Of a DNA stretch of 64,000 nucleotides, positions 18,443 to 63,929 are shown one piece after another (the stretch's first letter is position 1; each line of letters begins with the position of its first letter). Below the pieces are notes generated by a model, which did not search any database, was not told the origin of the DNA, and saw only the letters and a list, made by a program, of their open reading frames with translations. Origin of the DNA: an uncultured Candidatus Saccharibacteria bacterium (GTDB lineage: Bacteria > Patescibacteriota > Saccharimonadia > Saccharimonadales > AWTP1-31). The position numbers and the translations under genes were made by a program. The stretch covers positions 64,451 to 128,450 of the forward strand of contig CALCZR010000056.1 of NCBI GenBank assembly GCA_937903325.1. Direction: 5' to 3'.

Positions 18443-18471
18443 GAAAAAGTCCCCGGTTTTATGCCGGGGAC
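18443..18471 (-). terminator. rho-independent terminator after ORF 18506..19375
   Basis: Minus strand: GTCCCCGG-CATAAAA-CCGGGGAC followed by TTTTT. Confidence 0.7.
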
Positions 18472-18505
18472 CACGTAATTACAACGAACTTATAGCTTGT
18501 TATTC

Positions 18506-25391: not shown

Positions 25392-26477
25392 ATGGCATTG
25401 GCGGAAGTACCTGTTCTAACCGAACATATGGAAATGCAGCCAGGAGGAGATCCTGGAGCGCAAACAGCTAATCAATTCGCCGATACAGTCCCCTTGCCCA
25501 TCGCAAGGGGATTTTTTGATCCCGACACATTATCTCCAACGTCTGACTTTGAGAAACGAGTGGGTAGTCTCTTTGCGCCGCATGCCGGACATCTACTTGT
25601 AGAGCGAGTAAAGAAGCTCCCCGGTGGTAGTGTGGCGGTTGGAACATATGGCACTGAGCTTGCAGAGCATCGGAGTGGCGTCTATACACCGGCTGGTGCC
25701 GACGAGTCTGACGTACTACCAGTAGTACTTATGCAAACACCGCTCGGAACTGGCACACGACACGGCTCGCACAATGATATGGTCGCCCGCGAGTTCATGA
25801 CTCTTGGCATGCGGGTAATCCTCAAAGGGCCACCGCGCTACTACGAAGCTACCAGAGACGCAATTTCTATGGGTCAAGATGCTAACGAAGCACTTGGATT
25901 GGTGCATGCAGTAGTAAACGCAGGAGTGATACGTAGGATCCTAGACCTATCTGCTTATGGAGAATCACAGGGCGGTGGTAAGACTCTTTCTGCAGCTGCT
26001 GTGGCCGAAGGCTACTGTGGAGAGTCACTTGATGATCTACTCTCAGTTGCACCTTGCTTTATCAATGAAATTGTTTGGGCCAAGGCACTCAAAGAAGCAC
26101 ATAAACTTGGCAAAGAGGGTGTAGGCTTGCTTGCCCATATGAAGCAGATTGGCCTCGCAGGATCGCTTGCACTTGCTCGATCTGTCGCGCTTAAGGACGC
26201 ACATCATCATGGAATAGTACTACCCAAGCTATGGAACGGCGACTCAGGTCGAGCACTTAGTGCAACACCAGAGGGACAGAGGGGTCGCGTTGAGATCTTT
26301 GGGGATGATCCATTCACGGATCCGGTAAGAGATATTGAGCAGGTTAGTCTAACAAGTCTTGACGGCCGACTAACACCTGGGCTTGGACACCTGCCGGGCA
26401 TATTGAGTCTATACACAAGAATGCAACGCCAGACGCTTGCTCAGAATGCACATCAAAGAGTTGCCCCGCGAATCTAA
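25392..26477 (+). CDS. hypothetical protein, possible alpha/beta hydrolase
   Basis: 361 aa with a GxSxG-like nucleophile elbow (YGESQGG), later FGDDPF and GLGHLPG in Ser-Asp-His order. AAGGAA SD 8 nt upstream. Confidence 0.55.
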
Positions 26478-53049: not shown

Positions 53050-54369
53050 ATGCAGACCAACAGTGATGTGACTCAAGAAGTAATTGAGGTACTGAAACAA
53101 AACGATAAAACCCTCTTTACCCTTCCAGCTGATGGCCTGTACCCCCATCAATGGCTCTGGGATAGTTGTTTTGTAGCTATTGGGCTCAGGCACTTAGACA
53201 TAGACCGGGCTCAGACAGAACTCAAGAGCTTGCTTCGTGGGCAATGGAGTAATGGCATGCTCCCCCATATGATATTCAATAACTCAATGTTGTATGCTCA
53301 GGATCGTAACATCTGGCGCAGCCAGTTATCTCCGTACGCACCTGATACCGTTAGTACTTCTGGTATAACGCAACCTCCAGTGCTTGCAGAAGCTGTGATC
53401 CAAGTGGGCAAGAAGTTAAAAAAACCAGAACGCCGTACGTGGTACCTAACAATGCTACCTGCCCTGATCGCCTACCACCAATGGCTGTATACCGAACGAG
53501 ACCCGAGGGACTCAGGGCTTGTCCTGCAGGTGCATCCCCACGAAACAGGCTTGGATAGTACACCGCCCTGGATAGATCAGCTGCACCGTCACCACAAACC
53601 GTGGTGGGCCAGTTTCCTTGAAAGCACTAAGCTTATTAATACCGTCAGCCTGTTCCGCCGTGATACTCGTCACGTACCACCAGGTCAACGAATGAGTAAC
53701 CTCGACGCACTACTCTATTACGACGTTATCCGGAAGCTCCGAAACAAACATTATGACATCCACAAGATTCTCCGTAAGTCATCTTTTGCGATTCAAGACC
53801 TGACCTACAACAGTATCTTCATACGAGCCAATGGGTGTTTGGTGGAAATGGCTGAACTCGTAAATGCTGAGCTACCAGAAGAGCTGGTAAGCAATATGCA
53901 GAAAACCCGACAAGTATTCGAACAGCTCTGGGATGGGTATAGTAGTCAATACTACTCACGTAACCAACGTACCAACAAGTTAATTCGAGAACCAAGTATC
54001 GCTACCCTTATGCCCCTCTATGCCGGACACATTACCAAAGAACGAGCAGAACAGTTAGTTAGTCTACTCCACGACCAGGAGGTCTTTGGTACGAACTATC
54101 CTGTCGCTAGTGTGCCACTAACATCTAAGTACTTTAAACCCATGAGCTACTGGCAAGGCCCGACCTGGATTAATACCAATTGGCTCATTGTCCAGGGCCT
54201 AGAGCGGTATGGATATAAAAAAGAGGCGGAGATTATCCGCCTCAAGTCTATCGAACTTGTTCGCCAGCATGGTAGCTATGAATATTTCTCGCCCATAGAT
54301 GGCTCACCGGCAGGAGCCAAGAACTTTAGCTGGACGGCTGCTCTCGTGCTCGACTTTATTAAGAAATAG
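53050..54369 (+). CDS. GH63-like (alpha/alpha)6 glycoside hydrolase (glucosyl-/mannosylglycerate hydrolase-like)
   Basis: LYPHQWLWDSCFVAIGL, HPHETGLDSTPPW, YWQGPTWINTNWL. Confidence 0.7.
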   Translation: MQTNSDVTQEVIEVLKQNDKTLFTLPADGLYPHQWLWDSCFVAIGLRHLDIDRAQTELKSLLRGQWSNGMLPHMIFNNSMLYAQDRNIWRSQLSPYAPDTVSTSGITQPPVLAEAVIQVGKKLKKPERRTWYLTMLPALIAYHQWLYTERDPRDSGLVLQVHPHETGLDSTPPWIDQLHRHHKPWWASFLESTKLINTVSLFRRDTRHVPPGQRMSNLDALLYYDVIRKLRNKHYDIHKILRKSSFAIQDLTYNSIFIRANGCLVEMAELVNAELPEELVSNMQKTRQVFEQLWDGYSSQYYSRNQRTNKLIREPSIATLMPLYAGHITKERAEQLVSLLHDQEVFGTNYPVASVPLTSKYFKPMSYWQGPTWINTNWLIVQGLERYGYKKEAEIIRLKSIELVRQHGSYEYFSPIDGSPAGAKNFSWTAALVLDFIKK

Positions 54370-57534: not shown

Positions 57535-58719
57535 ATGAAGGAAATTCAGCTTGTCGGTGTCAATCACGGGGTAAGTGTTAGGTCGATGTTTGGTACTGAA
57601 ACGCTTCATGAAGTCCATCCTCCTGAAGATCTTGTTGAAACACTTGAACTCGGCAGAGGTACTAGCGTGGCCGTTGAAGCCGTACCCGGGCACGAACTTG
57701 TAACAGGCATTCCTCAGGAGCGAGACGATATGTCGGGTGATGAATATAGCCAAGCTTTTGTCGTGGCACAAGGACAACACTTCTTTGGTGCAGTATCGCG
57801 AATGCTAACTGCTGCTGGCTGTAATGTTCAAGGTATAGACGATCAGAATCTGCGACTTAATGTATATCCAAAACACCTTGCGCTAATAGACAGCGCTTCA
57901 GTACTAGCGTACATGCATGGTGACATGATGTTTGCACCTCGTATTGAGCATAGATTGGCCTTTTCGCGCGCATTCATAGGACATATGGACTCTTCTATTC
58001 GTGAGGATAGGATGTTCGGATTCCTAAGTAAGGGTAATTTCGATACTGCAGTAGTAAGCCAAGCGCATGCAGATACACTTGCAGCCAGCCCAGAACTTCA
58101 GGCGCGCCTTGGACTAAGAGTGGCTGAGTATTTGCGAGTGGAACCACTGCATAACGGCTATCCCATTACGGATGACAATGCACCCACAAGCATTACGAGT
58201 CAGAAGCTTCCTAGTCAACTCTACGCACCCGATCCCTATGAAGTAGCTATGGATGCACATGGACACGCCATAACACGCGAGCGTTACCGACGAAGATATA
58301 ATGCGTTTAGCATTGGTCGTGTACTTGGTAGGAGAGAAATGTCTCCTGACTACCTGGGTAGGTTCTATATCACAGGACCAGCTGAGAAAAGTTTATTTGA
58401 GCTTCATGTAGAGGATCGTGCAGGCTCTGAGTTTACAGGCACTATCTACGACATCTTAGGAACGGCAACGGCTGAGGGCGAAATAACCCCTGACGGACTA
58501 GAATTTAGAAAAGTATATGATAAAACTACCGTGCTAGAGAGGAATATCGTTCCGCTCAATTACCGAGGGACTATCAATCCAGATACCGGAACGGTCCTAG
58601 GTAGATATGCAGGGGATCGAGACAAGATTGAATGGGGGATGTGCTTTGTTATGAGGCCATATGACAGGCATGCAATTCACCAACTCAACAGGCAAGCCGT
58701 AATCTACGACCGAGAATAG
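57535..58719 (+). CDS. hypothetical protein (394 aa); N-terminal half weakly TraB/GumN-like
   Basis: IQLVGVNHGVS...VAVEAVPG and VVSQAHADTL are reminiscent of the TraB/PrgY/GumN LxGTxHV...VxVE...GxxH pattern. The C-terminal ~150 aa are Gly/Tyr/Asp-rich and look beta-rich. Weak inference. Confidence 0.6.
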   Translation: MKEIQLVGVNHGVSVRSMFGTETLHEVHPPEDLVETLELGRGTSVAVEAVPGHELVTGIPQERDDMSGDEYSQAFVVAQGQHFFGAVSRMLTAAGCNVQGIDDQNLRLNVYPKHLALIDSASVLAYMHGDMMFAPRIEHRLAFSRAFIGHMDSSIREDRMFGFLSKGNFDTAVVSQAHADTLAASPELQARLGLRVAEYLRVEPLHNGYPITDDNAPTSITSQKLPSQLYAPDPYEVAMDAHGHAITRERYRRRYNAFSIGRVLGRREMSPDYLGRFYITGPAEKSLFELHVEDRAGSEFTGTIYDILGTATAEGEITPDGLEFRKVYDKTTVLERNIVPLNYRGTINPDTGTVLGRYAGDRDKIEWGMCFVMRPYDRHAIHQLNRQAVIYDRE

Positions 58720-58822
58720 TAACTTGAATTAAAGGAACCCCGCACTCGGTACAGGGTTCGCGGGAAGCCTCACACTTCCTCATTTAGCTTAAGCCTATGC
58801 GCTTATGTTTGCAAGCATAATT

Positions 58823-59935
58823 TTAGGCAATTTTCTCCCAAGGAAGGTCCTTCTTACCGAAGTGACCATAGGCACTGGTTGCTTGGTATATAGGGCGTCG
58901 TAGGTCTAACTTTTCGATGATGCCACCGACACTAGTATCGATTAATTCATCCGCAAACTTTTCGAGCTCCTCTTGGCTTACGGTAGCCGTTCCAAATGCG
59001 TCAATAGTCTTCATAAGTGGCTTAGGTTGCCCAATAACGTAGGCAAGACCTACTTCACACTTTGTAGCCAGACCTTTGGCAACGATATTCTTGGCAATGT
59101 AGCGGGCTGCGTAAGCGCCAGAACGGTCTACCTTGCTTGGATCCTTACCACTAAAGGCACCACCTCCCACGCGGGCGTATCCACCATACGTGTCTACTAC
59201 GATTTTTCGGCCAGTAAGACCAGCGTCACTCTCGGGACCAGGAATATGCCATGTACCGGTACCATTTACGATCAACTGACTTTGTTCAATCTTGTAGCTA
59301 TAACTATCTAGCACTGGGCTTACAACTTGTTCAAATATGGCTTGGGCAACTGTCTGGTCGTCCACGTCTTCGTTGTGCGCAGTAGCGATAACAACTGTTT
59401 CAATACCTACTGGCTTGTCGTCTTCGTACTGTACCGTAACTTGGCTTTTGCCATCCGGGCGGATATAGTCAAGAATCTTCTTTTCCCTAACTTCATCCAG
59501 TCGTCGAGTTAGTGAGTGAGCAATAGCGACTGGGAGTGGCATAAGTTCAGGCGTTTCATTAATAGCAAAGCCAAACATCATGCCCTGGTCACCAGCACCG
59601 GTATCATCATTAGTGCCTTGTGCAATCTCTGGAGACTGCTGGTGAATGTTGTTTTCGAATTCAGACTCACCAGAGAATCCCCATGCAGGATTGGTGTAGC
59701 CAAGTTCGGCGATAGTCTCACGAACAATCTTCTCAAAGTCTACTTTGGCTGTGGTATTAATTTCACCAAACAGAGCTACTCGGTTAGCACCAGCTACCGT
59801 TTCAATACCAGTTCGAGCATGTGGATCTTGTGCCAATATGGCGTCCAGTAGCGCATCGCTAATGCGGTCAGCTATTTTGTCGGGGTGTCCAGCACAGACC
59901 GACTCGCTGGTGAATAATGTTTTGTTTGCGGGCAT
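58823..59935 (-). CDS. metK: S-adenosylmethionine synthetase
   Basis: GHPDKIADRISDA, GAGDQGMMFGFA, GGGAFSGKDPSKVDRS. Confidence 0.95.
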   Translation of the reverse strand: MPANKTLFTSESVCAGHPDKIADRISDALLDAILAQDPHARTGIETVAGANRVALFGEINTTAKVDFEKIVRETIAELGYTNPAWGFSGESEFENNIHQQSPEIAQGTNDDTGAGDQGMMFGFAINETPELMPLPVAIAHSLTRRLDEVREKKILDYIRPDGKSQVTVQYEDDKPVGIETVVIATAHNEDVDDQTVAQAIFEQVVSPVLDSYSYKIEQSQLIVNGTGTWHIPGPESDAGLTGRKIVVDTYGGYARVGGGAFSGKDPSKVDRSGAYAARYIAKNIVAKGLATKCEVGLAYVIGQPKPLMKTIDAFGTATVSQEELEKFADELIDTSVGGIIEKLDLRRPIYQATSAYGHFGKKDLPWEKIA

Positions 59936-60066
59936 AAAAATATCCTTCTCCGGTTCTAGAAAAGGATGTATGTTAACCTACATATCTTTCCCGGAACGGG
60001 GCTAGTTGGAGCACTTTATCTGCTGACAAGTTGCTAACGGGTCAGTGAGCTAGGTCTCTCGCCGTT
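59936..60066 (-). promoter_or_regulatory. structured metK 5' leader, putative SAM-responsive riboswitch with SD-sequestering helix
   Basis: Minus-strand RNA: AACGG (60066..60062) pairs with CCGUU (59999..59995). An internal 26-nt hairpin, AGCAACUUGUC-AGCA-GAUAAAGUGCU (60035..60010), carries GCAAC/GUGCU like SAM-I P3. UUCCGG (59996..59991) is complementary to CCGGAG (59953..59948), which overlaps the GGAGAAGGA SD. Confidence 0.45.
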
Positions 60067-60152
60067 TCTATATATTGGTAAATTGTTAACGCTTCCTAGC
60101 GTACCATGGCTTATTGTCTGGAAGCAAATGGGAACAATATCGTACTTAGCCT

Positions 60153-61238
60153 CTAAGGATTTTTCAGCTTGTCAGGTGCGCCGGGTAGCCAGTAACCGAG
60201 ATTCATCTGCACATTCTTATTAGTATCCGTGTAGACGCTCACTGGACAGTTTGTTGTCTCGTATCCGTTATTCGGATGCTTGGAAGTGTTAAGGGAGTTA
60301 GTGAACGCACTGAAACTATATGGCTGCACTGCACCATTGTTCGCACGAACATTAATGGTGGCCATGCTAGATTTTTGGAAATCGGAACAATTGTACTTGG
60401 TATTGCCGCTCAGTGAACGCCACCAATGTAAGTCTTCACCGAAAGCACCTGTATGTGTGTCGAGGAAGGAGGCGTCTTTGCCATTGATCACTGTCTGGAT
60501 ACGTTCCTCGCCAATAAACGTCTGTGCGTTTGTCGTCAGGTCAGTTACCCAAAGACCCCACCATTTACCAGATGCATCTACCTCACTTGGGCCTGGCTTA
60601 AGTTCAAATTTGTATTTGTGTCCAACCGTCCAGTTATATGGGTACATGACCTGGAAGCCACTGCTTTCTTCATTGCCATCATTCAGTAGCCCTGGGCTAG
60701 ATGTTTTACCTCCATTACTCCGCCAGAATGAGAAGTTAACGACCTTCCCTCGAAAGATCCCTTTAAACAGTCCATTTGTCTGAAAGCCCGCATAGCCGTA
60801 TCCCACCTCATCCGTATGGTTAGTCACTCCAAAGGTATAGGCGTAGTAGTGGAGCAGGTTGTCGGCGGCTAGGCTTGAGGCTGGATCTTGTACCGGAACC
60901 TGTGTCCACTCAAGGCTCGTGAGCCCTGTACCTGGATAGTACCAGTCTGCGTAAGTGCCTCCTGGACTGGCGCCACCGAACGATATGCCTTTCCCAAACC
61001 TTGTGTAGGTAGCATTAGCCGCCGTGTTGCTATTAGCAGTCAATGCTTTCCCCGTAAGCGCACCATTTTCAGTCTCAAACTGGGCAGAAGAAGTGGCAGC
61101 CTTCGTCAGTAAAACCAAACAAGCTCCTACAAGTGTTAAAGCTATCATGACCACAATGTAGAACAAATATTTTTTGAGATACTTCGGTCGACGTTTGTGT
61201 TTCATGGCTGCCTTTGTATTTAAGTGTAGCACGGGCAT
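60153..61238 (-). CDS. secreted/membrane-anchored hypothetical protein, probably beta-sandwich (lectin/glucanase-like)
   Basis: N-terminal basic + TM signal anchor, QFETENGALTGKA (typical start of CBM/jelly-roll modules), and a Trp/Tyr/Gly/Asn-rich body. Confidence 0.6.
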   Translation of the reverse strand: MPVLHLNTKAAMKHKRRPKYLKKYLFYIVVMIALTLVGACLVLLTKAATSSAQFETENGALTGKALTANSNTAANATYTRFGKGISFGGASPGGTYADWYYPGTGLTSLEWTQVPVQDPASSLAADNLLHYYAYTFGVTNHTDEVGYGYAGFQTNGLFKGIFRGKVVNFSFWRSNGGKTSSPGLLNDGNEESSGFQVMYPYNWTVGHKYKFELKPGPSEVDASGKWWGLWVTDLTTNAQTFIGEERIQTVINGKDASFLDTHTGAFGEDLHWWRSLSGNTKYNCSDFQKSSMATINVRANNGAVQPYSFSAFTNSLNTSKHPNNGYETTNCPVSVYTDTNKNVQMNLGYWLPGAPDKLKNP

Positions 61239-61282: not shown

Positions 61283-62083
61283 ATGAACATGATTATCTTG
61301 CTGCACTCCTCTAAAACTATGCGTCAGCCCACTGCTGGATCAGAAAGGGCCAAGCAGCAGACAGCGTCACCCGTTCTTCTTGAGAATGCAACGGAGATAG
61401 CGAACTATCTAAAGACCCTCAACACTACCCAGATCGCTCAGCACATGCAGGTGTCACCTGCCCTGGCCACAAAAACTCACACAGTACTACAGAATTGGAC
61501 GGCCGACTCAGACAAGCAAACACCAGCTATAGATTGTTTCTTAGGAGATATTTACAGTGGTTTCCAGGTAGCCATGCTAAGCAAACAAGACCGTGAGTAC
61601 GCCCATAAGCACTTGCGGATACTTTCCGGGCTATACGGGGTCCTCGGAGCATTAGACGGAATATACCCCTACCGGCTTGAAATGGCCTACCGATTCCCCA
61701 AAGAACCATTCAACAACTTGTATGACTTCTGGGGTGATAGTATTGCCAAGTCGCTGCAAGATGAGAAGTTCGTCATTAACCTATCTAGCGTTGAATACAG
61801 CAAGGCCGTTCTACCTTACATGAAGGATACTACAGTAGTAGCTCCCAAGTTCATGACCATTGACCCAAAAACCAAGGAACCTAAGTTTGTCGTAGTGCAC
61901 GCTAAGATAGCGCGCGGAGCATTTGCTCGGTGGCTCATACAAAATCGTGTACAGAGCCTAGAGGGTATGCAGAAATTTAATGACCTTAACTACCAATTCA
62001 ATGCGATACTTAGTACTCCAGGGGAACCTGTCTTTGTAGCTCAAGAGTTTGGTGGGCTTGGACTCAGTGTTAGGCTTTCGTAA
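61283..62083 (+). CDS. yaaA: peroxide stress protein YaaA (UPF0246)
   Basis: MIILLHSSKTM..., HLRILSGLYGVLGALDGIYPYRLEM, AKIARGAFARWL. The start may be the ATG at 61289. Confidence 0.85.
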   Translation: MNMIILLHSSKTMRQPTAGSERAKQQTASPVLLENATEIANYLKTLNTTQIAQHMQVSPALATKTHTVLQNWTADSDKQTPAIDCFLGDIYSGFQVAMLSKQDREYAHKHLRILSGLYGVLGALDGIYPYRLEMAYRFPKEPFNNLYDFWGDSIAKSLQDEKFVINLSSVEYSKAVLPYMKDTTVVAPKFMTIDPKTKEPKFVVVHAKIARGAFARWLIQNRVQSLEGMQKFNDLNYQFNAILSTPGEPVFVAQEFGGLGLSVRLS

Positions 62084-63782
62084 CGTTATCGGAGCCCAAC
62101 TCGTCTAGCTTTCTGATTCGCTTTACAAATCCTCCCAATGTACCGAATTTGTCGGATAGTTCATCAAGGAACGGTGTCAGACCAATCTTGTTTAAGGTTG
62201 TGAGGACTTTTGTCTTTTCCATTACTGTTTCACCGACGCCGATGGCGGCTTGGCCGAAGTAGACAAAGTCATCCAGATCCCAACCAATCGTGCTTCGAGA
62301 GCGCGAGAAACTATCGATTAATCGAGACATGTTTCTCCCATTTTTATAGTAAAGTTGTTTGATAGCTTTCATGTCGTTCTGTACGTGTCGCGCAAAGCGT
62401 TCACCGGGTCTAAAGTCACGTAGGACAAAGTGTGCAATCTTGACATCAACCCTACTGCCATCTTCACCACAAAGCTCAGTAAATAATGCGTCGTATTCCT
62501 TGTATGTTGCTTGGATGCACTCCTGATAGTTATAGTATGCACCTTTTGCTTGGGCTGTTTGCGCCTGAGAAGGACCTTTGCCCTGTTCGGCTAACTCTCG
62601 AATTTGTTCAGGAGTTGGTGGTTCGCCTTCGTGGTCTCGTGCCCAACGCACTCCGTACGCTACAACATCAGCAATTGACCATGCTGAATAGTCTACGATC
62701 CCTAGTCGACTGAGTGACTTTTCTCGTCCACCCAACAACTCAACGACTGTATTCGCATCCGGATCTGAAGTCATGTACCGATTGAATCCATTCAAACCTT
62801 CTTGCTGGACAATGTCAGTTATGTGTTGAAGGAGCTCAGGTTTGGACCACTCTGCCAGTGGAATCTCTCCATTGAGTGCTCGATTGACTCTACGCTGGTA
62901 TTCTGGTAATCCACCCAGGAAGCGAGCCTCTATTTGTAGTATTGTCGGCGAAATATGCAAATCACGTCCTTGTGCAATAATTTCATCAGTTAATTTCTTG
63001 GTGTCTGGGTTAGCGCTTGTTACCAGCCAGACGCCGTTATCTATCCAGTCTTGCTCTGACCAACGCTCTAATGTGGTACTTGTGACGAAACCGAGCTTAT
63101 CCTGGTAATTTTCAAACGAACGACCATGGCGCTTTACTATGGCTTTTGGAGGAGGACAAAGTCCAAGATTACTGGCCTTGCGAAGTTCCGGAAGTGTAGG
63201 CATTACGGGGCTGTCACTAGACCCTAATAGTTGACTCATCCAGCGTCCATTTTCAATGTACTGCTCCTGTGTCCAGCTTTCGTAGTCGAGTGGATGCTCA
63301 TATGGTTCGAACCCAAGTGCACGTTGATACTCAAGTAGATTCTTAAATCTATCATAGATAAGCCCAACAGGAGGGGCAATATCTACGCGTGACGCTTCCT
63401 GTAAATCCTCTTGTCGTGGCATGACCGGCTCTTCTGGCGAGCCAAGCATATGACTTAACCAGACGCCGTTATCTATCCAATCTTGCTCTGACCAGGATCT
63501 TAATAACTCTGTATTAACAAATCCTAGTCTAATTTGTAACGCGGAAATTCCGATTATTCTTGCAACCATTGCATAGTGCGGGCCAAGTCCGGCATCATAA
63601 GCTTCCTTAAGTATGGTCCTTGTTGGCATTACTATATCCACATCTTGAGGTGCTAGCTGCTGTCCAACAAATCGGGCATACGCAATCATTTGTTCAGGAG
63701 TACTACTTACGTCCAAGCATGAAAAGTCAGGAGATTTTGCTACCTCCGTTAACTCACCACCCGATGTTGTAACGTCTGACAT
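62070..63782 (-). CDS. repeat protein (570 aa) of ~65-aa helical repeats, homing-endonuclease-associated-repeat-like
   Basis: Six to seven units such as WSEQDWIDNGVWLSHMLGSPEEPVMPRQEDLQEASRVDIAPPVGLIYDRFKNLLEYQRALGF and WTQEQYIENGRWMSQLLGSSDSPVMPTLPELRKASNLGLCPPPKAIVKRHGRSFENYQDKLGF. No catalytic motif seen. Confidence 0.65.
   Translation of the reverse strand: MSDVTTSGGELTEVAKSPDFSCLDVSSTPEQMIAYARFVGQQLAPQDVDIVMPTRTILKEAYDAGLGPHYAMVARIIGISALQIRLGFVNTELLRSWSEQDWIDNGVWLSHMLGSPEEPVMPRQEDLQEASRVDIAPPVGLIYDRFKNLLEYQRALGFEPYEHPLDYESWTQEQYIENGRWMSQLLGSSDSPVMPTLPELRKASNLGLCPPPKAIVKRHGRSFENYQDKLGFVTSTTLERWSEQDWIDNGVWLVTSANPDTKKLTDEIIAQGRDLHISPTILQIEARFLGGLPEYQRRVNRALNGEIPLAEWSKPELLQHITDIVQQEGLNGFNRYMTSDPDANTVVELLGGREKSLSRLGIVDYSAWSIADVVAYGVRWARDHEGEPPTPEQIRELAEQGKGPSQAQTAQAKGAYYNYQECIQATYKEYDALFTELCGEDGSRVDVKIAHFVLRDFRPGERFARHVQNDMKAIKQLYYKNGRNMSRLIDSFSRSRSTIGWDLDDFVYFGQAAIGVGETVMEKTKVLTTLNKIGLTPFLDELSDKFGTLGGFVKRIRKLDELGSDNVTKA
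63027..63062. repeat. 36-nt intragenic direct repeat, copy 1
   Basis: ccagacgccgttatctatccagtcttgctctgacca. Confidence 0.9.
63459..63494. repeat. 36-nt intragenic direct repeat, copy 2 (35/36 identical)
   Basis: ccagacgccgttatctatccaatcttgctctgacca, 432 nt from copy 1. Confidence 0.9.
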
Positions 63783-63855: not shown

Positions 63856-63929
63856 TGGGGATTGGCCAAGTGGTAAGGCAGCGGATTCTGGTTCCGCGAT
63901 CGGGGGTTCGAATCCCTCATCCCCAGCCA
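63856..63929 (+). tRNA. tRNA-Gln (anticodon CUG), CCA encoded
   Basis: Hand-folded cloverleaf: acceptor TGGGGAT/ATCCCCA (U1-A72), G73 discriminator, anticodon stem GCGGA/TCCGC with loop TTCTGGT, T arm GGGGG-TTCGAAT-CCCTC, 3' CCA. Confidence 0.9.

What the first reader, a model, noticed from the sequence alone, without database searches (positions are those of the whole stretch)
59936..60066. Structured metK leader: SAM-riboswitch-like but not canonical SAM-I, with an SD-sequestering helix
The 217-nt gap upstream of metK encodes several elements on the minus strand. (1) A closing helix AACGG/CCGUU. (2) An AGAGA junction. (3) A 26-nt hairpin AGCAACUUGUC-AGCA-GAUAAAGUGCU, whose GCAAC / GUGCU arms with an A.G mismatch mimic the conserved P3 of SAM-I (GGCAACC...GGUGCC). 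(4) Immediately after the 3' arm of the closing helix, UUCCGG, complementary to CCGGAG and overlapping the GGAGAAGGA Shine-Dalgarno. This encloses a long hairpin (GGAAAGAUAUGUAGGUUAACAUACAUCCUUUUC), an arrangement recalling SAM-III/SMK-type translational control. The putative aptamer is only ~72 nt. I cannot find a kink-turn P2 or a P4, so it may be a SAM-I/IV-like variant or a new class.
Basis: partly seen in the sequence, partly recalled or inferred. Interest (0 to 1): 0.55.

Follow-up and report, generated by a model that had tools for sequence, protein, structure and literature searches.

The report
Ordinary SAM-I riboswitch before metK
The leader of the S-adenosylmethionine synthetase gene in this Saccharibacteria-like genome holds a standard SAM-I riboswitch that most likely shuts the gene off when SAM is plentiful, so it is a known kind of element, not a new class.

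Summary
A local Rfam scan matches the whole SAM-I model (RF00162, positions 1-108) at window 59977-60078 (-). The score is 43.4 bits, E 7.2e-9, 1.0 bit under the gathering score, which is why the whole-window scan was silent.

MetK's closest relatives are Candidatus Saccharibacteria MAGs. Eight of 11 related loci carry SAM-I above threshold, as do 72 of 151 genomes sampled from that order. Across 42 aligned leaders, 90.2% of cells pair (78.3% when shuffled) and 23 of 31 pairs show compensatory changes. The pseudoknot pairs in 158 of 158 cells.

Downstream, a 10-bp hairpin holds the Shine-Dalgarno sequence in its 3' strand. It is followed by AUUUUU and the AUG. This matches the "dual transcription and translation attenuation" platform of Barrick and Breaker 2007. 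SAM binding and termination are inferred, not tested.

The parts
60098..60106 (-). Extended -10-like promoter element TGGTACGCT (TGnTAnnnT), 19 nt upstream of the aptamer.
   Evidence: the motif lies 15-20 nt before the aptamer in nearly all of the 33 of 42 related leaders that carry it. It occurs in 37 of 840 random 45-nt control windows. The stricter two-hexamer scan found no promoter in 59700-60400. The promoter role is inferred.
60082..60089 (-). Conserved TTAACAAT box just 5' of P1, at about the predicted transcript start. Its function is unexplained.
   Evidence: TTAA[C/T/A]AA is present in 34 of 42 leaders; exact GTTAACAAT occurs once in the window; no consistent RNA partner was found (mean duplex -3.25 against -3.85 kcal/mol for shuffled boxes, 33 leaders).
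59977..60078 (-). SAM-I (S-box, RF00162) aptamer of 102 nt.
- P1: 60078-60071 with 59984-59977.
- J1/2 (UAGA): 60070-60067.
- P2 with kink-turn: 60066-60036.
- P3: 60035-60010.
- J3/4: 60009-60001.
- P4: 60000-59990.
- J4/1: 59989-59985.
   Evidence: 43.4 bits, E 7.2e-9, model positions 1-108 of 108; 86.8 bits with my own model; covariation.
60050..60053 (-). 5' half of the pseudoknot (CUAG in the P2 loop). It pairs with CUAG of J3/4 at 60005-60002.
   Evidence: in 42 leaders, 158 of 158 cells are paired. All 4 pairs show changes on both sides (CUAG/CUAG, CUGA/UCAG, CUGG/CCAG, CUCG/CGAG, seen). The pseudoknot was not part of the model that made the alignment.
59958..59992 (-). GGGAAAG..AUGUA (3' strand of P4, J4/1 and 3' strand of P1) pairs with UACAU.CCUUUUC (linker plus anti-SD strand).
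   Evidence: -8.5 kcal/mol, 12 pairs; it is the MFE at transcript length 127 nt (pair probabilities 0.83-0.95); an analogous pairing is possible in 34 of 35 related leaders.
59942..59967 (-). SD-sequestering, terminator-like hairpin: AUCCUUUUCU - AGAACC - GGAGAAGGAU. The SD is in the 3' strand.
   Evidence: terminator-like hit with 10 pairs, 3 G-C pairs and tail ATTTTTATGC.: -11.4 kcal/mol; the same layout occurs in 36 of 42 leaders.
59936..59941 (-). AUUUUU tract between the hairpin and the AUG. It serves as SD-start spacer and as a possible terminator U-tail.
   Evidence: among 26 SD-preceded candidate starts in the window, only metK has a T-run of 4 or more in the spacer. U4-U8 is present in 36 of 42 leaders.
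58823..59935 (-). metK (S-adenosylmethionine synthetase), 370 aa. This is the regulated gene.
   Evidence: PF00438, PF02772 and PF02773 are all present.
58735..58759 (-). Terminator-like hairpin 64 nt after the metK stop, the likely end of the transcription unit.
   Evidence: 11 pairs, 6 G-C pairs, tail CTTTAATTCA.

Best explanation
The metK leader is a canonical SAM-I (S-box) riboswitch with OFF logic. It has its own extended -10 promoter and belongs to a Saccharibacteria-like genome (Patescibacteria/CPR).

Shown in the sequence: a 102-nt four-way-junction aptamer (P1-P4, a kink-turn in P2, and a pseudoknot between the P2 loop and J3/4). It is followed by two mutually exclusive pairings.

Inferred mechanism without SAM: the 3' strand of P4, J4/1 and the 3' strand of P1 pair with the anti-SD strand. 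This anti-sequestor/antiterminator leaves the Shine-Dalgarno sequence free.

Inferred mechanism with SAM: P1 is locked. The anti-SD strand AUCCUUUUCU then pairs with GGAGAAGGAU. That hairpin buries the SD, is followed directly by AUUUUU and the AUG, and therefore also looks like an intrinsic terminator.

The platform is of the 'dual transcription and translation attenuation' type. Termination at the start codon is the first layer, and SD sequestration catches read-through transcripts. Predicted energies point to a kinetic, co-transcriptional decision. Ligand binding, termination and translational block were not tested.
For: Aptamer:
- RF00162 aligns over model positions 1-108 at 59977-60078 (-), 43.4 bits, E 7.2e-9.
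- At Rfam's highly conserved positions the window has AGA in J1/2, GA and UGA of the kink-turn, GCAAC and GUGC in P3, and GAUA at J4/1-P1.

Orthology:
- The best MetK relatives are Candidatus Saccharibacteria/Saccharimonadales MAGs, 88% to 65% identity.
- Of 11 related loci, 8 have SAM-I above the gathering score, 7 of them directly before metK.
- Each of 5 relatives' genomes has exactly 1 hit.
- Of 151 genomes sampled from the order, 83 have a hit at E<=0.001 and 72 are above the gathering score. One of the 83 is the unpublished G038.

Covariation:
- RNAalifold on 10 leaders recovers P2a, P2b, P3 and P4, with 9 pairs changed on both sides.
- On 42 leaders, 90.2% of cells pair against 78.3% shuffled (0 of 500 shuffles reach it) and 38-46% when the partner is slid. 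23 of 31 pairs have double changes.
- The pseudoknot pairs in 158 of 158 cells, and 4 of 4 pairs have double changes.

Platform:
- The terminator-like scan hits 59967..59942 with tail ATTTTTATGC.
- The SD lies inside the hairpin's 3' strand, followed by U4-8 and a start, in 36 of 42 leaders.
- The hairpin's 5' strand can pair with the last 18 nt of the aptamer in 34 of 35 leaders, and P4's 3' strand changes together with it.
- A T-run of 4 or more in the SD-start spacer occurs at 1 of 26 candidate starts in the window, and that one is metK.
- The window also holds clear hairpin-plus-T-run sites elsewhere, for example 54243..54223, 25487-25513 and 18472..18448.

Folding path:
- The MFE is the closed aptamer at 102-111 nt.
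- It is the anti-sequestor at 127 nt (pair probabilities 0.83-0.95).
- It is aptamer plus sequestor from 137 nt on.
- Before the SD strand exists, the aptamer (-18.4) and P2+P3+anti-sequestor (-19.9 kcal/mol) are nearly balanced.

Literature: passages of Barrick and Breaker 2007 (PMC2258182) describe terminators whose 3' side holds the RBS as dual platforms. Their criterion is 10 nt or less from hairpin to start. Here the distance is 6 nt.
Against: - The score is 1.0 bit below Rfam's gathering score, and the whole-window gathering scan reports nothing here.
- P1 is weak and AU-rich. RNAalifold did not predict it.
- In the 42-leader alignment the three outer P1 pairs are unpaired in 14-22 sequences. 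The top pair is C-G in 20 and a non-standard pair (A.G in the window) in 22.
- The window's P1 register is ambiguous: 7 pairs in the Rfam register against 4 in its relatives' register.
- P4 has only 4 pairs and a 3-nt loop.
- The hairpin is a weak terminator: 3 G-C pairs of 10, A-U pairs at its base, -11.4 kcal/mol.
- At equilibrium the full leader is predicted to sit in the sequestered state even without ligand (probability about 0.97; -29.8 against -19.9 kcal/mol). The ON state therefore rests on an assumed kinetic trap.
- The 42-leader alignment was fitted to my own model. 28 of its sources are among the 30 best-scoring loci, so it leans towards canonical examples.
- There are no binding, termination or expression data.
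Confidence: 0.88

Rival explanations
1. Purely translational, reversible switch. The aptamer is SAM-I, but the hairpin only hides the SD. The U-run is just an A/U-rich spacer, and RNA polymerase does not stop there.
For: - The SD lies in the 3' strand of the hairpin in 36 of 42 leaders.
- The window's hairpin is a weak terminator, with 3 G-C pairs and A-U pairs next to the U-run.
- A translational SAM-I riboswitch is reported in Xanthomonas (PMC7270179; only the start of the abstract was seen).
Against: - The predicted equilibrium without ligand is already about 97% sequestered. A purely thermodynamic switch would then be nearly always OFF.
- The U4-8 run is kept in 36 of 42 leaders but occurs at only 1 of 26 SD-preceded starts in the window.
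- More distant relatives (L014, L015) have a separate classical terminator before the SD. Termination control therefore exists in related lineages.
Confidence: 0.15
2. A new SAM-binding class or a SAM-I/IV-like variant with a ~72-nt aptamer that lacks the kink-turn P2 and P4.
For: - The score is below Rfam's gathering score.
- P3 and P4 are short.
- A more distant relative, L009 (Levyibacteriota), matches SAM-I/IV best, at 38.2 bits, under its threshold of 41.1.
Against: - The whole SAM-I model aligns, including the kink-turn positions and P4.
- All 4 P4 pairs have changes on both sides and 93.9% of their cells pair.
- Orthologues pass the SAM-I threshold.
- SAM-I was the best match of its clan at this site, and no SAM family outside that clan matched at E<=10.
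Confidence: 0.03
3. A decaying, non-functional relic. The aptamer has drifted below the threshold in a reduced genome, and metK is expressed constitutively.
For: - The score is sub-threshold.
- There is a mismatch in P1 and a minimal P4.
- 68 of 151 sampled genomes of the order gave no hit at E<=0.001. Incomplete genomes and stricter filters may account for some of these.
Against: - Every substitution relative to the Rfam consensus in P2a and P3 is compensated: AACGG/CCGUU and U-A in P3.
- The pseudoknot halves stay complementary.
- The promoter element, the box, the anti-sequestor and the sequestor are all intact and match L001 closely.
Confidence: 0.05

Closest known systems
SAM-I riboswitch / S-box leader (Rfam RF00162)
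   Same: - Full-length match to the model.
- Four-way junction P1-P4, kink-turn in P2, and the P2-loop/J3-4 pseudoknot.
- Conserved J1/2 AGA, GCAAC...GUGC in P3, and GAUA at J4/1-P1.
- Location before a SAM/methionine gene.
- OFF logic through competition for the 3' strand of P1.
   Different: - Scores 43.4 bits against a gathering score of 44.4.
- P2a is A-U-rich (AACGG/CCGUU).
- The pseudoknot is CUAG/CUAG rather than the consensus with GG/CC.
- P3 and P4 are short.
- The top of P1 is A.G rather than C-G, as in 22 of the 42 aligned leaders.
Dual transcription and translation attenuation platform (Barrick and Breaker 2007, PMC2258182; passages read)
   Same: The RBS sits in the 3' side of a terminator-like hairpin. 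The hairpin ends 6 nt before the start codon, within their limit of 10 nt. An anti-terminator competes for the hairpin's 5' strand.
   Different: Their classification used the Rnall program with a U-tail weight. I used a simple pattern scan and RNAfold. Neither termination nor translational block has been tested for this lineage.
SAM-I riboswitch of Xanthomonas campestris (PMC7270179; only the search listing and the start of the abstract were seen)
   Same: A SAM-I aptamer reported to act mainly at the level of translation.
   Different: It controls the met operon and is reported also to sense uncharged initiator tRNA. Nothing of that kind was examined here.
SAM-IV and SAM-I/IV variant riboswitches (same Rfam clan, CL00012)
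   Same: They share a clan with SAM-I. From recall, they have a related SAM-binding core. One more distant relative (L009) matches SAM-I/IV best.
   Different: Here P4 lies inside the junction and covaries. SAM-I was the best-scoring member of the clan at this site.
SMK box / SAM-III
   Same: It also controls metK, and SAM leads to SD occlusion.
   Different: In the SMK box the SD is part of the ligand-binding aptamer itself (passage in PMC10907184). Here the SD is in a separate hairpin 40-50 nt downstream of the aptamer. No SMK match appeared at E<=10.

Membership tests
SAM-I riboswitch (RF00162) | Four helices P1-P4 around a four-way junction | tested here: met
   - The alignment covers model positions 1-108.
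- RNAalifold recovers P2a, P2b, P3 and P4.
- On 42 leaders, 90.2% of cells pair and 23 of 31 pairs have double changes.
- P1 is the weakest helix, with 75% of cells paired.
SAM-I riboswitch (RF00162) | Kink-turn in P2 (G.A/A.G signature between P2a and P2b) | tested here: met
   Sequence level only. The window's CGA aligns with the consensus gGA and ACUGAC with uaUGAA. G36 and A37 are invariant in 10 leaders. The three-dimensional kink itself cannot be tested with these tools.
SAM-I riboswitch (RF00162) | Pseudoknot between the P2 loop and J3/4 | tested here: met
   CUAG (60053-60050) pairs with CUAG (60005-60002). In 42 leaders 158 of 158 cells pair and 4 of 4 pairs have double changes. Slid controls give 4-57%.
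SAM-I riboswitch (RF00162) | Conserved core nucleotides at the junction and in P3 | tested here: met
   AGA (J1/2), GCAAC and GUGC (P3), A-U/U-A pairs in P1 and GAUA are present at the consensus positions. They are invariant in 10 related leaders. That these are the ligand-contacting nucleotides is recalled, not shown by any search.
SAM-I riboswitch (RF00162) | Operational criterion, not a structural feature: score at or above Rfam's gathering score of 44.4 bits | tested here: not met
   The score is 43.4 bits, so the site is absent from the gathering scan. Orthologues score 49.5-57.2 bits. The closest one, L001 (88% MetK identity), scores 54.2.
SAM-I riboswitch (RF00162) | Binds SAM and discriminates against SAH | not testable with these tools
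   This needs in-line probing, ITC or equilibrium dialysis.
SAM-I riboswitch (RF00162) | Lies in the 5' leader of a methionine/SAM gene | tested here: met
   It lies directly before metK. In relatives it also lies before a Cys/Met PLP-enzyme ORF (E 3.4e-17) and before an ORF with a weak MetE-like match (E 0.00099, under the cut-off).
Dual transcription/translation attenuation platform | A predicted intrinsic terminator in the platform, its hairpin 10 nt or less from the start codon, with the RBS in its 3' side | tested here: met
   Pattern-scan hit at 59967..59942 with tail ATTTTTATGC. The distance from stem to AUG is 6 nt and the SD is in the 3' strand. Actual termination was not tested.
SMK box (SAM-III) | The SD is part of the SAM-binding aptamer | tested here: not met
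   No match at E<=10 in 59880-60200. The SD (59951-59942) lies outside the aptamer (59977-60078).
SAM-I/IV variant and SAM-IV | A SAM-I-like core without a P4 inside the junction (recalled definition) | tested here: not met
   P4 (60000-59990) is present, and all 4 of its pairs covary. SAM-I was the match kept for the clan. The scores of the other clan members at this site were not displayed.

The most novel reading that the evidence does not exclude
The Saccharimonadales SAM-I leaders may form a lineage-specific subtype. Its features would be an extended -10 promoter, a conserved TTAACAA box at the transcript start that has no detectable RNA partner, an A.G pair at the top of P1, and a terminator fused with the SD sequestor. 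In that reading the box would carry a second input, such as a protein or a start-site effect, on top of SAM sensing. This is usually the only SAM-I hit in these roughly 1-Mb genomes.
Probability: 0.1. Interest if true: 0.45.

Novelty: new member of a known kind. Interest (0 to 1): 0.17.

Why it matters
The finding corrects a possible false lead: this is not a new SAM riboswitch class.

Three modest points remain.
- Annotation that relies on Rfam's gathering score misses this copy by 1 bit. Eleven further hits also fell between E 0.001 and the threshold (83 hits against 72 above it, of 151 genomes).
- Saccharibacteria and their relatives have very small genomes and few known regulators. In each of the 5 relatives' genomes checked there was a single SAM-I hit, at or close upstream of metK. 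SAM feedback on metK therefore seems to be retained despite genome reduction.
- A review of Patescibacteria (PMC11665869, passage read) names riboswitches as promising tools for inducible expression in this group. A native, compact promoter-plus-riboswitch cassette of about 170 nt (60106-59936) could be a starting part for that.

Tried and rejected
- Whole-window Rfam gathering scan: only a tRNA at 63856-63926. The riboswitch appears only with the E-value threshold.
- Plain MFE fold of the 233-nt gap: z-score -1.17, 27 of 200 shuffles fold at least as well. Single-sequence folding therefore does not single the region out.
- Own genome: none is held. Counts of riboswitches per genome come from relatives only.
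It would cover part of the SD in the state that should be ON, it uses P4 nucleotides, and by eye it is not kept in L001. Rejected.
- RNAalifold's extra helix, columns 77-80 with 103-106 (AUCU/AGAU): it has no changes on both sides and is broken in the window (A.A). Treated as spurious.
- My first anti-sequestor test (12 of 42 passed) cut the region too short and let P4 compete. It was replaced by the test.
- First energy evaluations: I mis-indexed P2 and P3. Those energies are discarded, and one search is the corrected run.
- TTAACAA box as an RNA pairing partner: mean best duplex is -3.25 against -3.85 kcal/mol for shuffled boxes, and partner positions scatter. No support.
- Strict two-hexamer promoter scan: 0 sites in 59700-60400.
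- RNA evidence: no RNA holder is listed. The five runs are small-share contigs labelled 'probably DNA'. Laying four of them gave 7 short low-depth contig pieces from close variants. They carry no information on starts, ends or expression.
- Literature:
  - 'riboswitch' + 'Saccharibacteria' returned 15 papers holding both terms, 12 listed.
  - 'riboswitch' + 'candidate phyla radiation' + 'SAM' returned 10 papers, 8 listed.
  - No listed title or abstract start concerned native riboswitches.
  - In the three papers I opened with 'find', the passages mentioning riboswitches concern synthetic or theophylline riboswitches only.
  - I did not read the others, so I do not claim that native SAM-I in this group is unpublished.
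  - Supplementary files (for example the alignments of PMC2258182) were closed and could bear on this.
No protein search, structure prediction or complex prediction was needed.
Full report
**What is at the site.** On the minus strand, metK runs from 59935 to 58823. It encodes 370 aa with all three S-adenosylmethionine synthetase domains.

A gathering-threshold Rfam scan of the whole window reports only a tRNA at 63856-63926. An E-value scan of 59880-60200 gives a full-length match (model positions 1-108 of 108) to the SAM-I riboswitch RF00162 at 59977-60078 (-). The score is 43.4 bits against a gathering score of 44.4, with E 7.2e-9. The only other match at E<=10 is a chance lncRNA match at E 0.49.

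- P1 is CCAAUAUA (60078-60071) with UAUGUAGG (59984-59977), 7 of 8 positions paired.
- 'AGAGA' is the kink-turn bulge CGA plus P2b (GAG/CUC). ACUGAC is the other kink-turn strand.
- The 26-nt hairpin is P3 itself, not a mimic.
- CUAG in the P2 loop (60053-60050) is complementary to CUAG in J3/4 (60005-60002). This is the SAM-I pseudoknot.
- UUCCGG belongs to a short P4, CCCG-UUC-CGGG (60000-59990).
- The aptamer is therefore 102 nt, not about 72 nt.

**Where it comes from, and orthologous leaders.** No genome is held for the window. The closest MetK relatives among one genome per species are MAGs labelled Candidatus Saccharibacteria or Saccharimonadales: L001 at 88% identity, and L002-L010 at 76-65%.
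- An E-value Rfam scan of L001-L011 finds SAM-I above the gathering score in 8 of 11 loci (49.5-57.2 bits). In seven of them it lies directly before metK.
- In L003 the hit lies before another ORF.
- L007 scores 36.8 bits, below the threshold.
- L009 (Levyibacteriota) matches SAM-I/IV at 38.2 bits, below its threshold of 41.1.
- L011 has nothing.

Each of five relatives' genomes (0.8-1.2 Mb) has exactly one RF00162 hit. In 151 genomes sampled from the order of G001, 83 have a hit at E<=0.001 and 72 are above the gathering score, mostly one per genome. One of these genomes, G038, is unpublished. Its locus L114 was not used further.

**Covariation.**
- RNAalifold on 10 leaders recovers P2a, P2b, P3 and P4, with 9 pairs changed on both sides. 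For example, AACGG/CCGUU in the window and L001 stands against GCAG/CUGC in the others. It does not predict the AU-rich P1.
- I built a covariance model from these 10 with the SAM-I structure and searched 45 sources.
  - The sources were the window, L001-L015, L077 and L086-L113.
  - 41 sources had a hit. L003 had two, so there were 42 hits in all.
  - None was found in L009, L011, L013 or L077.
- On that alignment 90.2% of 1281 cells form standard pairs. This compares with 78.3% in shuffles (0 of 500 reach it) and 38-46% when partners are slid by 1-3 columns. 23 of 31 pairs have changes on both sides.
- P1 is the weakest helix, with 75% of cells paired. Its top pair is C-G in 20 leaders and non-standard in 22 (A.G in the window).
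- The pseudoknot was not part of the model. It pairs in 158 of 158 cells, and all four pairs change on both sides. The variants are visible.
- Caveats: the alignment is fitted to the model, L086-L113 are among the 30 best-scoring loci, and related sequences inflate cell counts.

**Expression platform.** After P1 come these elements:
- a 9-nt linker;
- AUCCUUUUCU (59967-59958);
- a 6-nt loop;
- GGAGAAGGAU (59951-59942), which contains the SD;
- AUUUUU (59941-59936);
- AUG.

The hairpin has 10 pairs at -11.4 kcal/mol and is picked up by the terminator-like scan. Its 5' strand, together with the linker, can instead pair with GGGAAAG..AUGUA. That segment is the 3' strand of P4, J4/1 and the 3' strand of P1.

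The same design recurs in relatives.
- In 36 of 42 leaders the SD is paired inside a hairpin that is followed by U4-U8 and a start codon.
- The six that failed the test are L094, L103, L105, L107, L014 and L015. L014 and L015 instead have a separate classical terminator before the SD.
- In 34 of 35 leaders tested, at least five nucleotides of the hairpin's 5' strand can pair with the last 18 nt of the aptamer. L093 was skipped for its 200-nt leader, and L090 failed.
- The inner part of the hairpin changes together with the 3' strand of P4, for example GCGGG with CCGC and UCGGGG with CUCGA.

**Transcription, translation or both.**
- By a rough start-calling rule, only 1 of 26 SD-preceded candidate starts in the window has a T-run of 4 or more in the spacer. 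That one is metK. The U-run is therefore not the usual spacer composition of this 47.7% G+C window.
- The window contains convincing hairpin-plus-T-run sites elsewhere, including one 64 nt after the metK stop. Overall enrichment over shuffles is modest: 26 against 16.2 (sd 3.8), 22 against 15.1 (sd 4.9), and 17 against 15.8 (sd 3.8).
- The predicted folding path runs as follows.
  - At 102-111 nt the MFE is the closed aptamer.
  - At 127 nt it is the anti-sequestor (pair probabilities 0.83-0.95), with P1 and P4 open.
  - From 137 nt on it is aptamer plus sequestor.
  - In the full leader the sequestor has pair probabilities of 0.81-0.97 even without ligand.
- Before the SD strand is made, the aptamer (-18.4) and P2+P3+anti-sequestor (-19.9 kcal/mol) are nearly balanced. 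Afterwards OFF (-29.8) beats ON (-19.9).
- This pattern fits a kinetic, co-transcriptional decision. A freely equilibrating translational switch would not show it.
- The hairpin is a weak terminator, however, with 3 G-C pairs and A-U pairs at its base.
- I therefore favour the dual reading described by Barrick and Breaker 2007. [quoted passage not shown] Here the distance is 6 nt. Which layer dominates remains open.

**Promoter and an unexplained box.**
- 33 of 42 leaders have TGnTAnnnT upstream of the aptamer, 15-20 nt before it in nearly all, against 37 of 840 random 45-nt control windows.
- In the window this is TGGTACGCT at 60106-60098.
- 34 of 42 leaders have TTAA[C/T/A]AA just 5' of P1. 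In the window this is TTAACAAT at 60089-60082.
- The exact 9-mer GTTAACAAT occurs once in the window.
- I found no consistent RNA partner for the box. Its role is unexplained.

**Comparison with known systems and verdict.** All structural features that define SAM-I were met at the sequence and covariation level. The only criterion missed is the curated score cut-off, by 1 bit, and the orthologues pass it. The SMK-box analogy fails because the SD is not in the aptamer. The SAM-I/IV and SAM-IV reading fails because P4 is present and covaries.

This is a new member of a known kind with a known type of platform. SAM binding, termination and translational control are inferred. Interest is low. The residual novelty lies in the conserved box, the A.G top of P1 and the lineage context.

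Noticed in passing
window 60082-60089 (-), and the same position in 34 of 42 related leaders: A conserved TTAA[C/T/A]AA box lies between the extended -10 element and P1, at about the predicted transcript start. It is unique in the window as an exact 9-mer and has no consistent RNA pairing partner.
   Followed up: partly
L003:37-140 and L003:2269-2436: There are two SAM-I matches in one locus. The first precedes a 304-aa ORF with a weak match to cobalamin-independent methionine synthase (PF08267, E 0.00099, under the cut-off). The second, with long insertions, lies directly before metK.
   Followed up: partly
L098:314-1447 (-): In this relative the SAM-I riboswitch precedes a Cys/Met-metabolism PLP-dependent enzyme (PF01053, E 3.4e-17) rather than metK.
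   Followed up: partly
L095 and L096, just after the U-run of the metK leader: Where other leaders have AUG UCA AA..., these two related genomes read AUU UCA AAC. No ATG with an SD was found by my rule, so metK may start with AUU there.
   Followed up: no
L004:341-425 (-): A match to the c-di-GMP-II riboswitch (RF01786) at 52.1 bits, just under its gathering score of 53.5, E 1.3e-8.
   Followed up: no
L009:4182-4555 (-): Bacterial RNase P class A matches over its full length at only 60.6 bits (gathering score 100), E 4.9e-16, in a Levyibacteriota MAG.
   Followed up: no
L009:2403-2515: In this Levyibacteriota MAG the metK leader matches SAM-I/IV (RF01725) rather than SAM-I, at 38.2 bits (threshold 41.1). 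The match reaches into the start of metK.
   Followed up: no
L014:2311-2421 and L015:128-272 with their downstream leaders: These more distant relatives carry a SAM-I aptamer followed by a separate G+C-rich terminator with a U7 run, and only then the SD and start. Termination and SD are not fused there.
   Followed up: partly
window 58735-58759 (-): A terminator-like hairpin (11 pairs, 6 G-C) lies 64 nt after the metK stop, the likely end of the metK transcription unit.
   Followed up: no
window 60070-60078: Low-depth contigs from two coded runs of one study show variant letters at 60070, 60075, 60077 and 60078, in the 5' strand of P1 and in J1/2. By my reading, three of them would turn C-G or A-U pairs into G.U wobbles in the Rfam P1 register. 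Depth is about 2, so this is weak.
   Followed up: no
window 60153-61238 (-): The upstream gene has only a borderline DUF3472 match (24.4 bits, cut-off 24.8). Two neighbouring ORFs, 57535-58719 (+) and 62070-63782 (-), have no Pfam match.
   Followed up: no
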